64,000 bases of DNA, taken from the NCBI GenBank assembly GCA_000092065.1, contig CP000581.1; one strand, 5' to 3'. The translations under genes were made by a program, and so were the position numbers. The notes beneath the pieces were generated by a model. The model was not told the DNA's origin, ran no database searches, and saw only the letters and a list, made by a program, of their open reading frames with translations. This DNA comes from Ostreococcus lucimarinus. Lineage: Eukaryota. Shown here piece after piece: positions 40,394 to 42,697 of this stretch (position 1 is the stretch's first letter; the number at the start of each line of letters is the position of its first letter).

Positions 40394-42697
40394 TCAGACG
40401 ATTTCAGGGGTGACTGTGTCGTCTCCAGACGCTGCAGCGGCGGCTTGCGCGGTCATGAGCTTGAAGACCCGACTCGCGAAAACAGATGGCTTCTCGATGG
40501 AGAAACCAGACGTCAGCAAAGCGGTGTCGAACAAGAGTTGGCAGTTGTCTGCGGCTTCGGCGACGCCGGATTCCTTCATCTTTTTCAACTGAGCGATGAC
40601 GGGAGAAGCGGGGTTGATTTCCATCGTCTTCTTGCCCTTCATGTAATCTTGCGCGCGGTTATCACCCATGGCTTGGGCTTTCATGATGCGCTCCATGTTC
40701 GCGGACCAGCCGAATTTGGAAGTCACTAAGACGCACGGGGTGTCTGTGAGACGGTTTGACACCTCAACCTTTTCGACTTGTTCGCCGAGCGTGGCCTTCA
40801 TCCAGTCCGTGAGATCTTTGTACTCTTCCGCGAGCGCTTCGCGCGCGGCTTTGTCTGCATCGTCCTCATCACCGAGATCAAGCGCTTCCTTGGAAGCGTC
40901 GACGATGGGCTTTTCCTTGAACGTCGCCAAGTTGGCCATGGCGACTTCATCAATCGGATCGAGCAAGTATAAGACTTCGAAGCCCTTTTGCTTGAGCTTT
41001 TCGAGGAACGGAGAAGCTTCAGCGGCGTCCTTGTTGTCTGCAGCGACAAAATAGATGCTGTTTTGGCCCTCCGGCATGTCGTTCAAGTAGTCGTCCAAGC
41101 CTCGCAACTCGCCGTCGTCGCCGCTCTTCGACGTGGTGAAGCGCAAGAGTTCAGCCAAATCCTTGCGGTTGTCCGTGTCTTCGATGACGCCCAACTTCAG
41201 ATTACGTCCAAAGTTTTCCCAGAACGTGTCGTAATCGTCACCTTCACGCGCGGCGATGTCACGAAGCATGTCAAAAGTCTTGCGAATCAAGCGCTTGCGA
41301 ATGACGCGAACGATGCGAGATTCTTGAAGGATTTCGCGAGAGACGTTGAGAGGCAAGTCGGAAGAATCGACGACGCCTCGAACGAAGGTGAGGTATCGCG
41401 GCAACAACGACTCGTCAAACTCGTCGGAGATGAACACGCGTCGAACGAAGAGTTTAATAGCCTTCGATTTGGACATCATGTCCTGTTGCTCGAACGGCGC
41501 CATGCCTGGGATGAACAAGATGGAGCGGAATTCGATGTCGCCCTCCACGGCGAAATGCGAGTGCGCGAGCGGGTCGAGGAACTCTTTGAACGTGGATTTG
41601 AAGAACTCGTTATACGACTCTTGCTCGACATCCTTGGGCGAACGAACCCAGATGGGCTTATCGTTGTTGGCCGTCGTCCACTCTTCCACTTGCTCGAACT
41701 CCTTCTTCTTCACGGGTTTGGGTTCCGGCTCGGTGAACTCCTCGCCCTTGGCCTCGGCTTCGATCTTCTTCTTCTCCCACGCTTCCTTCAAAGCATCGGT
41801 AGAAGCCTTGTCTTCGACTTCCTTTTCCTTGGTCGTCTTCGCCCAGACATCGATGGGGAAAGAGATGAACTCGCTGTACGTCTTCACGAGCGACGACAGC
41901 TTTTCCCCTGTGGAGAATTCCTCGCATCCTTCCTTGAGGTGCAAGACGATTTTTGTCCCGCGCGCGATGGCTTCTTCGCTCTCCTTCACGGTGTACGAGC
42001 TGGCGTTGATCTCGGACTCCCACACCCACGTCTTGTCGTCGTCACCCGACGCCGCCTTGGAGTACACGGTGATTTTATCAGCCACCAAAAACGCCGAATA
42101 AAAGCCGACGCCGAATTTACCGATCAAGTTTTCCCCGTCGCTTCGGCTCTGCAACATTTCCATAAACTTGGCCGTTCCCGAGCGCGCGATCGTCCCGAGC
42201 GACGACACGAGATCTTCTTTGTTCATCCCAATCCCCGTGTCCTCGATCGTCAGCGTTTTCGCCTCGGGATCTCCCTTAATCTTAATTCTCAACTCCTCGT
42301 TCCCTCCCATGGCGTTCGGGTCCGAGAGCGCGGAGAATCGAAGCTTGTCGCACGCGTCGCTCGCGTTCGACACGAGCTCGCGCAAGAACACATCCTTATT
42401 GCTGTACAACGAGTTCACGATCAAATCCATCAATCGGTGCACCTGCGCGCGCGCGAGCACCGCGATCGTCAGTCTCGCCGAAGTTCCCTCCGTTCCCTCT
42501 CGCGTCTTCTAGAAGGCCTTCTAGAAGGCTCTCTTCCGTCGCGCGCGCGACGCCCTCGCGCGCCTCCGTCTTCGCCACCACTCGCGCGCCGTCTCGCGTC
42601 GTGCGCGCACCTCGGCTTGATACTCAAACGTCTCTTCCGTCGCCGCCGCGCGCGTCGTCGTCAGCGCGCGCGCGCGTCGCGGCGTCGCCGTCCGCAT
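40394..42697 (-). CDS. Plastid-type HSP90 (HSP90C/HtpG-like). Two exons (42697-42611 and 42442-40394); the intron at 42443-42610 is GT-AG.
   Basis: Exon 1 is [29 protein letters not shown]. Donor GTGCGC. Acceptor cgcgcag. Exon 2 is [36 protein letters not shown], matching the chloroplast HSP90C N-domain [40 protein letters not shown]. Full GHKL ATPase, middle and C-domains follow. Confidence 0.85.
42506..42527. promoter_or_regulatory. Perfect 22-bp palindrome cttctagaaggccttctagaag with two TTCtaGAA heat-shock-element-like dimers, inside the HSP90C first intron
   Basis: Read directly. nTTCnnGAAn is the HSE core. Two copies are separated by ggcc. It sits 85-105 bp downstream of the predicted start codon. 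Confidence 0.4.

What the first reader, a model, noticed from the sequence alone, without database searches (positions are those of the whole stretch)
42443..42610. HSP90C first intron carries a perfect 22-bp palindrome made of two heat-shock-element-like TTCtaGAA dimers
Splicing EYQAE|[9 protein letters not shown] restores the conserved HSP90C N-terminus, which places a 168-bp intron directly after a 29-codon first exon. Inside it is cttctagaaggccttctagaag (42506-42527), a perfect palindrome built from two nTTCnnGAAn units. A heat-shock factor binding site in the first intron of a chaperone gene, rather than in the promoter, would be a notable regulatory arrangement. Alternatively, the real transcription start could be downstream and exon 1 mis-assigned.
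Basis: partly seen in the sequence, partly recalled or inferred. Interest (0 to 1): 0.55.

Follow-up and report, generated by a model that had tools for sequence, protein, structure and literature searches.

The report
Conserved heat-shock-element-like motif in HSP90C intron
The first intron of the chloroplast HSP90 gene of a marine picoalga (Ostreococcus) carries two copies of TTCTAGAA, the preferred binding site of heat-shock factor, and related species conserve this motif while the rest of the intron has diverged; it is most likely a regulatory site placed inside the gene, as in human HSP90-beta, though binding and heat response are untested.

Summary
HSP90C lies on the minus strand. Its 29-codon exon 1 (42696-42611) is followed by a 168-nt GT-AG intron (42610-42443). 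The intron contains the perfect 22-bp palindrome cttctagaaggccttctagaag (42506-42527).

The intron is real. All seven Ostreococcus lineages examined have it. A spliced environmental mRNA from a sister lineage joins the exons exactly at EYQAE|V. An oak HSP90-6 gene has an intron at the same codon boundary. Micromonas and Bathycoccus have lost it.

The conserved unit is CTTCTAGAA, not the 22-bp palindrome. It occurs in the intron of four of the seven lineages. Three of them share a 17-18-mer, GAAAAGCGCTTCTAGAA(G), although silent coding sites are only 44-61% identical. In each fetched 6-8 kb locus the motif occurs nowhere else.

The best reading is a heat-shock-factor-type site acting as a downstream enhancer, because the bidirectional promoter is only about 120-220 bp long. 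Four caveats apply:
- The two dimers are 2 bp out of canonical register.
- Three lineages lack the motif.
- HSF binding is untested.
- I could not reach other Ostreococcus heat-shock genes to test enrichment.

A precedent exists in the first intron of human HSP90AB1. I rate this a new member of a known kind, of moderate interest.

The parts
42611..42696 (-). HSP90C exon 1 (29 codons in this haplotype: short transit peptide plus the conserved ETFEYQAE)
   Evidence: ETFEYQAE followed by GT is conserved in 7 lineages. The spliced mRNA L091 confirms the junction in a sister lineage.
42443..42610 (-). Intron 1: 168 nt, phase 0, GTGCGC...CAG, with an in-frame TAG so that retention would truncate the protein
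   Evidence: The position is shared with Quercus HSP90-6. The intron is absent in Micromonas and Bathycoccus.
42506..42527 (.). Perfect 22-bp palindrome: two tail-to-tail nTTCnnGAAn dimers joined by GGCC
   Evidence: Identical in 6 environmental contigs of the same species.
42507..42514 (.). TTCTAGAA copy 1 (promoter-distal on the gene strand)
42519..42526 (.). TTCTAGAA copy 2. On the plus strand, with the adjacent gCTCt, it gives the only 3-unit HSE reading here (one mismatch).
42468..42472 (-). Branch-site CTGAC, 26 nt from the 3' splice site
   Evidence: GACTGACG is the only 8-mer shared by all 7 introns.
40394..42442 (-). HSP90C exon 2 (682 codons plus stop; HATPase_c and HSP90 domains; ends ...TVTPEIV)
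   Evidence: 88% identical to 'heat shock protein 90C [Ostreococcus tauri]'; Pfam.
42697..42817 (.). Spacer of about 121 bp between the two divergent start codons (bidirectional promoter), with two CCAAT boxes at 42792-42802 and ACG/GAA microsatellite
   Evidence: Length-polymorphic among haplotypes.
42818..43681 (+). Divergent neighbour gene: UBA-domain protein, weakly rhomboid-like. It is a possible second target of the element, which lies about 290-310 bp upstream of its ATG.
   Evidence: UBA, E = 8e-11. (synteny in all Ostreococcus lineages and in Bathycoccus).

Best explanation
The two TTCTAGAA units are a DNA-level cis-regulatory element under purifying selection. They are most likely bound by the single heat-shock transcription factor (HSF) of Ostreococcus. 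The element sits inside intron 1, a few hundred bp downstream of the start codon, and acts as a promoter-proximal downstream enhancer that raises HSP90C transcription under proteotoxic or heat stress. It may also act on the divergent UBA-domain gene. The upstream bidirectional promoter is only about 120-220 bp long, so the ancient 5' intron provides nearby non-coding space for the site. Shown here: the intron, the splice junction, the motif, its conservation and its uniqueness within the locus. Inferred: HSF as the binding factor, heat responsiveness and enhancer activity.
For: (1) TTCTAGAA is a tail-to-tail nTTCnnGAAn dimer with a pyrimidine-purine centre. This is the two-site arrangement HSF binds best, and the sequence is used in HSF-DNA crystal oligos (PMC8379338). 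Plant HSP70 loci fetched in passing carry TTCTAGAA 140-330 bp upstream of the start of the HSP70 coding match.
(2) The motif is a phylogenetic footprint. CTTCTAGAA is in the orthologous intron of 4 of 7 lineages. Apart from the branch site and a GC repeat, it is the only 9-mer shared by at least 4 introns. L002, L004 and L008 share the 17-18-mer GAAAAGCGCTTCTAGAA(G), and the window and L004 share CTTCTAGAAGA; 0 of 100 shuffles reached either length. Four-fold degenerate coding sites are only 44-61% identical between lineages.
(3) In each 6-8 kb orthologous locus that carries TTCTAGAA, every copy lies in this intron.
(4) The host gene is a chaperone. O. lucimarinus has one Hsf gene (PMC6563006). 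In Chlamydomonas HSF1 drives HSP synthesis, and HSP90C is the plastid HSP90 (PMC6000179).
(5) Precedent: the first-intron HSEs of human HSP90AB1 are the functional ones (PMC4980810).
(6) Transcription starts upstream of the intron. The spliced mRNA L091 reaches at least 130 nt 5' of the junction.
Against: The element is not a canonical HSE. The dimers are 12 bp apart in the window and 14 bp apart in L004, where the register would be 10 bp, and the best 3-unit reading has a mismatch. O. tauri and L008 keep only one perfect dimer. L001 (the closest relative, 91% amino-acid identity), L006 and L007 have no TTCTAGAA at all, and no canonical HSE (3 units, up to 1 mismatch) lies upstream of or within HSP90C in them. 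Intron-less Micromonas and Bathycoccus orthologues have no TTCTAGAA upstream; the only near-HSE is a 3-unit, 1-mismatch match about 65 bp upstream of the Micromonas ATG. The conserved block extends into GAAAAGCGC, which is not HSE-like. There are no expression or binding data. Enrichment near other Ostreococcus heat-shock genes could not be tested.
Confidence: 0.55

Rival explanations
1. The conserved block (GAAAAGCGC)TTCTAGAA is the site of a different dimeric DNA-binding factor. It would control HSP90C under another programme, such as light or diel timing, chloroplast unfolded-protein signalling or the cell cycle, rather than through HSF and heat.
For: The conserved 17-18-mer includes GAAAAGCGC and AAGCGCTT, which are not part of an HSE. 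L001 and L006 keep AAGCGCTT/GCGCTTTTCC but lose TTCTAGAA. The dimer spacing is off the HSE register. Micromonas and Bathycoccus HSP90C have no clear HSE.
Against: TTCTAGAA is the textbook optimal HSF dimer site, and I could name no other factor with this specificity. The window lacks the GCGC part (GGCC instead) yet keeps two perfect TTCTAGAA units.
Confidence: 0.2
2. The element acts mainly on the divergent UBA-domain (rhomboid-like) gene, or equally on both genes. It lies about 290-310 bp upstream of that gene's ATG, a normal promoter distance.
For: The head-to-head arrangement of the two genes is conserved in all Ostreococcus lineages and in Bathycoccus. The spacer is only about 121 bp.
Against: Bathycoccus keeps the gene pair but has neither the intron nor the motif. 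Nothing here shows that the UBA gene responds to stress.
Confidence: 0.1
3. The palindrome works at the RNA level, as a hairpin in the pre-mRNA intron that modulates splicing, for example in a temperature-dependent way.
For: The 22-nt palindrome folds as a 9-bp stem with a GGCC loop in the minimum-free-energy and centroid structures. Intron retention would give a premature stop.
Against: The window intron folds no better than shuffled sequence (z = -0.86). O. tauri and L008 have a single TTCTAGAA that cannot form this hairpin, and the O. tauri fold around the motif is different. Spacer length and sequence vary, and there is no compensatory pattern. Rfam gave only a chance hairpin match at E = 0.14, below threshold.
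Confidence: 0.06
4. The element marks an internal, stress-activated promoter. Transcripts starting in the intron would be translated from Met33 (MDLIV...) and give an HSP90C without a transit peptide. This is a weakened form of the reader's idea that the transcription start is downstream.
For: The first ATG downstream of the palindrome is the in-frame Met of LMDLIV. Initiation sites inside the first intron are reported for the human HSP90 genes (PMC4980810).
Against: A spliced mRNA containing exon 1 exists, and exon 1 is conserved. No TATA or initiator is evident. L004 has an upstream ATG after its motif. A protein starting at Met33 would lack the conserved N-terminal EYQAEV(H/N)RL segment.
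Confidence: 0.05
5. The palindrome is a chance or neutral sequence with no function.
For: Three of seven lineages lack it. The perfect 22-bp symmetry is specific to this species.
Against: The expected count is 0.01 per window. The 17-18-mer is conserved across lineages whose silent sites are near saturation. The motif occurs in the homologous place and nowhere else in the loci.
Confidence: 0.04

Closest known systems
First-intron heat-shock elements of human HSP90AB1 (HSP90-beta)
   Same: HSE-type nTTCnnGAAn sites sit in the first intron of an HSP90-family gene, downstream of the transcription start. In the human gene the intronic sites, not the upstream one, carry constitutive and heat-induced expression (PMC4980810).
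   Different: In the human gene the intron lies in the 5'UTR, the sites are +630 to +1350 from the start, and two are canonical 3-unit HSEs. Here the intron splits the coding region after the transit peptide, the sites are two 2-unit dimers out of register, the gene encodes the plastid paralogue, and function is untested.
Canonical promoter HSE (at least three alternating nGAAn units) bound by trimeric HSF
   Same: The window has perfect GAA/TTC triplets, tail-to-tail pairing and a TA (pyrimidine-purine) centre, next to a chaperone gene (PMC8379338). TTCTAGAA is also seen upstream of plant HSP70 genes.
   Different: There is no perfect third contiguous unit. The second dimer is shifted by 2 bp in the window and 4 bp in L004. 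The location is intronic rather than upstream.
Chlamydomonas HSF1-dependent heat-shock regulon (HSP70A, HSP90A, HSP70B, HSP90C)
   Same: It is a green-algal system in which HSF1, the only one of two encoded HSFs known to be heat-activated, initiates HSP synthesis. HSP70B and HSP90C are the plastid counterparts of cytosolic HSP70A and HSP90A (PMC6000179).
   Different: The characterised Chlamydomonas HSEs that I know of are promoter elements (from my own knowledge, not checked here). No Ostreococcus data were found in the library.

Membership tests
Spliceosomal intron (real, not a mis-assigned exon) | GT...AG boundaries with a branch site, and removal restores the conserved protein | tested here: met
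   GTGCGC...CTGAC(26 nt)...CAG. Splicing gives [17 protein letters not shown]. The same layout is found in 7 lineages.
Spliceosomal intron (real, not a mis-assigned exon) | Transcript evidence of removal | tested here: met
   The 2283-nt JGI contig L091 (sample 3300037689) is the L004-lineage gene with the 207-nt intron precisely removed, and it extends 130 nt 5' of the junction. This is evidence from a sister lineage, not from the window's own species.
Spliceosomal intron (real, not a mis-assigned exon) | Position conserved in distant homologues | tested here: met
   Quercus suber HSP90-6 reads YEYQAE|gtacat...tttcag|VSRLMDLIV. The NCBI model starts an exon exactly at V. Micromonas and Bathycoccus lack the intron.
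HSP90C (plastid HSP90) | HATPase_c plus HSP90 domains, orthology to named HSP90C, an N-terminal extension, and no MEEVD or KDEL tail | tested here: met
   88% identical to 'heat shock protein 90C [Ostreococcus tauri]'. Pfam PF02518, PF13589 and PF00183. The C-terminus is TVTPEIV. Plastid targeting itself was not tested.
Canonical heat-shock element (HSE) | Inverted nGAAn pentamers, tail-to-tail nTTCnnGAAn with a pyrimidine-purine centre | tested here: met
   Two copies of cTTCtaGAAg. Definition from PMC8379338.
Canonical heat-shock element (HSE) | At least three contiguous pentamers in 5-bp register | tested here: not met
   The dimers are 12 bp apart instead of 10. The best 3-unit match is cTTCtaGAAggCTCt with 1 mismatch. 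At that stringency the window has 13 matches against 6.7 expected, so that criterion alone is not distinctive.
Canonical heat-shock element (HSE) | Bound by HSF and confers heat inducibility | not testable with these tools
   Needs ChIP, EMSA or reporter assays. The literature shows only that O. lucimarinus has one Hsf gene (PMC6563006).
Canonical heat-shock element (HSE) | Recurs near other heat-inducible genes of the same genome | tested here: inconclusive
   The window holds no classical HSP gene other than HSP90C. Four attempts to fetch Ostreococcus HSP70 or HSP90A loci returned only plants, animals, other protists or nothing.
Conserved non-coding regulatory element | Conserved beyond the neutral expectation in orthologous positions | tested here: met
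   A shared 17-18-mer among L002, L004 and L008, and an 11-mer between the window and L004, with 0 of 100 shuffles reaching these lengths. Four-fold sites are 44-61% identical. Conservation is incomplete: the motif is absent in L001, L006 and L007.

The most novel reading that the evidence does not exclude
The intronic element is a heat-activated internal promoter as well as an enhancer. Under stress, transcription would start inside intron 1 and translation would begin at Met33 (MDLIV...). The product would be an HSP90C without its transit peptide that stays in the cytosol, so one gene would serve two compartments in a minimal genome. A milder version is that Ostreococcus kept this ancient intron, which Micromonas and Bathycoccus lost, because the compact bidirectional promoter left no other room for the stress element.
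Probability: 0.06. Interest if true: 0.65.

Novelty: new member of a known kind. Interest (0 to 1): 0.36.

Why it matters
If confirmed, this would be a clear case of stress regulation from inside a coding-region intron in one of the smallest free-living eukaryotic genomes. The divergent start codons here are only about 120-220 bp apart. It would link the retention of an ancient intron to a regulatory load. It would also provide a short, portable heat-responsive element for Ostreococcus, which can be transformed. Finally, natural lineages with and without the motif offer a ready comparison for how chaperone regulation turns over. [quoted passage not shown]

Tried and rejected
Enrichment near other Ostreococcus heat-shock genes. 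This is the key test and it failed for lack of data.
- A scan of bacterial and archaeal genomes for eukaryotic contaminant contigs gave low-GC non-Mamiellales HSP70s.
- A protein search with Arabidopsis HSP90.2 listed only angiosperms in its top 120.
- Viral contigs hold no Ostreococcus HSP90C locus, and the 14-mer AAGCGCTTCTAGAA gives only chance hits there.

Other checks that led nowhere or ruled something out.
- A canonical 3-unit HSE scan of the window found 13 sites against 6.7 expected, mostly in coding sequence, so it was not informative.
- The RNA-structure reading was rejected. The fold is unexceptional (z = -0.86) and the hairpin is not conserved in O. tauri.
- Known RNA families and intron-hosted snoRNAs were checked against Rfam. 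The only match was a chance hairpin below threshold.
- "Intron gained in Ostreococcus" was rejected after the same intron position was found in oak HSP90-6.
- Literature searches found nothing on HSEs or heat-shock transcription in Ostreococcus.

Full report
**What is there**

The window is GC-rich eukaryotic DNA from the prasinophyte picoalga Ostreococcus. The long minus-strand ORF 40394-42460 encodes an HSP90. It is 88% identical to "heat shock protein 90C [Ostreococcus tauri]" and 90% identical to the nearest environmental cluster. The window's own protein (read from MDLIV...) is present verbatim in NCBI, JGI, Logan and ENA assemblies, in 244 blocks of the collection.

On the minus strand the gene reads as follows:
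- ATG at 42696
- 29 codons, [29 protein letters not shown]
- GTGCGC at 42610
- CTGAC at 42472-42468
- CAG ending at 42443
- VHRLMDLIV... from 42442

The intron is 168 nt, a multiple of three, but it contains an in-frame TAG, so it cannot be read through. The 22-bp palindrome cttctagaaggccttctagaag sits at 42506-42527, exactly as reported. TTCTAGAA occurs three times in the window against 0.26 expected. The double motif occurs once against 0.01 expected. The third TTCTAGAA (32202) lies between the 3' ends of two convergent genes.

**The intron is real and old**

I fetched orthologous loci for six further Ostreococcus lineages: L001, L002 (O. tauri), L004/L005, L006, L007 and L008. All have a phase-0 intron of 149-239 nt directly after (E/K)YQAE. 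Each has a GTG-type donor and GACTGACG 24-37 nt before the AG.

A 2283-nt JGI contig (L091, sample 3300037689) is the L004-lineage gene with its 207-nt intron precisely removed. It extends 130 nt upstream of the junction.

Micromonas (L009) and Bathycoccus (L010) orthologues read straight through this point with no intron. I first took this for an Ostreococcus-specific gain. However, the Quercus suber HSP90-6 gene reads YEYQAE|gtacat...tttcag|VSRLMDLIV, and the NCBI model starts an exon exactly at that V. The intron position is therefore ancestral in green plants, kept in Ostreococcus and lost in its relatives.

**What is conserved is the unit, not the palindrome**

- O. tauri has ggaaaagcgcTTCTAGAAacTTTt, with one perfect dimer.
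- L008 has ggaaaagcgcTTCTAGAAgggg.
- L004/L005 have TTCTAGAAaagcgcTTCTAGAAgaa, two dimers 14 bp apart.
- The window has two dimers 12 bp apart, with a GGCC spacer that happens to complete a perfect palindrome.
- L001, the closest relative, and L006 retain only AAGCGCTT/GCGCTTTTCC and GAA repeats.
- L007 has nothing recognisable.

The introns otherwise do not align. The only 9-mers shared by at least four of them are the branch site, a GC repeat and CTTCTAGAA. The longest common substrings are 17-18 nt, GAAAAGCGCTTCTAGAA(G), among L002, L004 and L008, and 11 nt between the window and L004. None of 100 shuffles reached these lengths, and the longest shuffled match was 10-12 nt. Four-fold degenerate sites in the adjacent coding sequence are only 44-61% identical between lineages, so neutral sequence is near saturation and the block is under purifying selection. 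In every 6-8 kb locus that has TTCTAGAA, all copies lie in this intron. Six environmental contigs of the window's own species have exon 1 and the intron 100% identical, including the palindrome, while the upstream spacer varies by indels.

**What it most likely does**

TTCTAGAA is a tail-to-tail nTTCnnGAAn pair with a pyrimidine-purine centre. This is the two-site arrangement that HSF binds with highest affinity, and the sequence is used in HSF-DNA crystal structures (PMC8379338). Plant HSP70 loci fetched by accident show TTCTAGAA 140-330 bp upstream of the start of the HSP70 coding match. O. lucimarinus encodes one Hsf (PMC6563006). In Chlamydomonas, HSF1 initiates HSP synthesis, and HSP90C is the plastid partner of that system (PMC6000179).

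The distance between the HSP90C start codon and the start codon of the divergent UBA-domain gene is about 121 bp in the window and up to about 220 bp in other haplotypes. The intron is therefore the nearest free non-coding DNA.

I conclude that this is a DNA-level regulatory element, most likely an HSF site acting as a downstream promoter-proximal enhancer for HSP90C and possibly for the neighbour. Human HSP90AB1 gives a direct precedent: its first-intron HSEs, not its upstream one, carry expression, and initiation sites inside the intron have been reported (PMC4980810).

**Why confidence is only moderate**

- A typical HSE needs at least three contiguous pentamers. Here the two dimers are 2 bp (window) or 4 bp (L004) out of register. 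The best three-unit reading has a mismatch, and that stringency is not distinctive in this window: 13 matches against 6.7 expected.
- Three of seven lineages lack the motif and have no canonical HSE (3 units, up to 1 mismatch) near the 5' end of the gene. Micromonas has only a 3-unit, 1-mismatch match about 65 bp upstream of its ATG, and Bathycoccus has no clear HSE upstream of HSP90C.
- The conserved block includes GAAAAGCGC, which an HSE does not explain.
- I could not test the decisive prediction, enrichment near other Ostreococcus heat-shock genes. The window's only other chaperone-related gene is a TPR-DnaJ protein with no such motif nearby. Four routes to Ostreococcus HSP70 or HSP90A loci failed.

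**Rivals**

- A different transcription factor or regulatory programme remains possible (0.2).
- Action mainly on the divergent UBA gene is possible (0.1).
- An RNA hairpin that regulates splicing is unlikely (0.06). The window intron folds no better than shuffles (z = -0.86). The single-copy lineages cannot form the hairpin. Rfam has no real match.
- An internal promoter giving a transit-peptide-less protein from Met33 is not excluded but has no support (0.05).
- Chance is disfavoured by the conservation (0.04).

**Verdict**

This is a new example of a known arrangement, an intronic HSE-type element in an HSP90-family gene. It has non-canonical spacing and shows lineage-specific turnover in a very compact genome. 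Interest is moderate (0.36).

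Noticed in passing
window 42697-42817; compare L212-L217 positions about 1010-1235: The spacer between HSP90C and the divergent UBA gene is length-polymorphic within the species. Five of six environmental contigs (L213 is gapped by Ns) carry 24-99 extra bp of ACG/GC repeat that the window lacks. That DNA contains upstream in-frame ATGs, so exon 1 is 38, 53 or 78 codons there (MTTTTTTTT...) against 29 in the window. The window haplotype either has an unusually short transit peptide or reflects a deletion or a collapsed repeat.
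   Followed up: partly
window 42792-42802: Two tandem CCAAT boxes (gattggattgg on the plus strand) lie in the bidirectional spacer, about 95-105 bp upstream of the HSP90C ATG. CCAAT or ATTGG also occurs in the spacer of L001, L006 (three tandem copies), L007 and L008, but not in that of O. tauri or L004.
   Followed up: partly
window 32202-32209: The only other TTCTAGAA in the window (gaattctTTCTAGAAaat) lies in the roughly 120-bp gap between the stop codons of two convergent genes, a DUF4336 protein and a GST-like protein. It may be chance or a shared 3' element. Its conservation was not checked.
   Followed up: no
L001 2880-2925 compared with window 42500-42535: The closest relative seems to have lost both palindromes by changes only in the TTC halves. 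The window has TTCT-AGAAGGC-CTTCT-AGAAG where L001 has AAAA-AGAAGGC-AA-AGAAG. This leaves direct AGAAG repeats next to GCGCTTTTCC. The GCGC-containing spacer also appears in opposite orientation in L001 and L006 compared with L002, L004 and L008.
   Followed up: partly
L002 2840-2988 (O. tauri intron 1): The O. tauri intron folds much better than shuffled sequence (-65.7 kcal/mol, z = -3.46, 0 of 200 shuffles). The window intron does not (z = -0.86). The cause is a long GC-rich closing stem, not the motif.
   Followed up: no
protein P0135 (cluster of P0013): A 461-aa fragment of Ostreococcus-type HSP90C is deposited in NCBI as 'MAG: molecular chaperone HtpG, partial [Candidatus Nanopelagicaceae bacterium]'. 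This is most likely a eukaryotic contig mis-binned into a bacterial MAG.
   Followed up: no
L092 (Quercus suber PKMF04000405.1) / P0053: The NCBI model 'heat shock protein 90-6' is 1150 aa and repeats a large part of the HSP90 sequence. It also skips the conserved ...ERYEYQAE exon end that is visible in the genomic DNA. It looks like a fused or mis-spliced gene model.
   Followed up: partly
window 48718-50940 (-), 52182-53984 (-) and 62210-64000 (-): A TPR plus C-terminal DnaJ protein (DNAJC7/P58IPK-like co-chaperone) lies 6 kb from HSP90C, with no TTCTAGAA near it. Two separate M24 metallopeptidase genes lie within 12 kb of each other.
   Followed up: no
L027, L028, L031, L041-L043 (plant HSP70 loci); L087 1690-1710: Plant HSP70 genes recovered from metagenomes carry TTCTAGAA 140-330 bp upstream of the start of the HSP70 coding match. 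A GC-rich marine protist HSP70 (L087) has a perfect 3-unit aTTCcaGAAagTTCc about 65 bp upstream of its ATG and a small 5' intron after codon 4.
   Followed up: no
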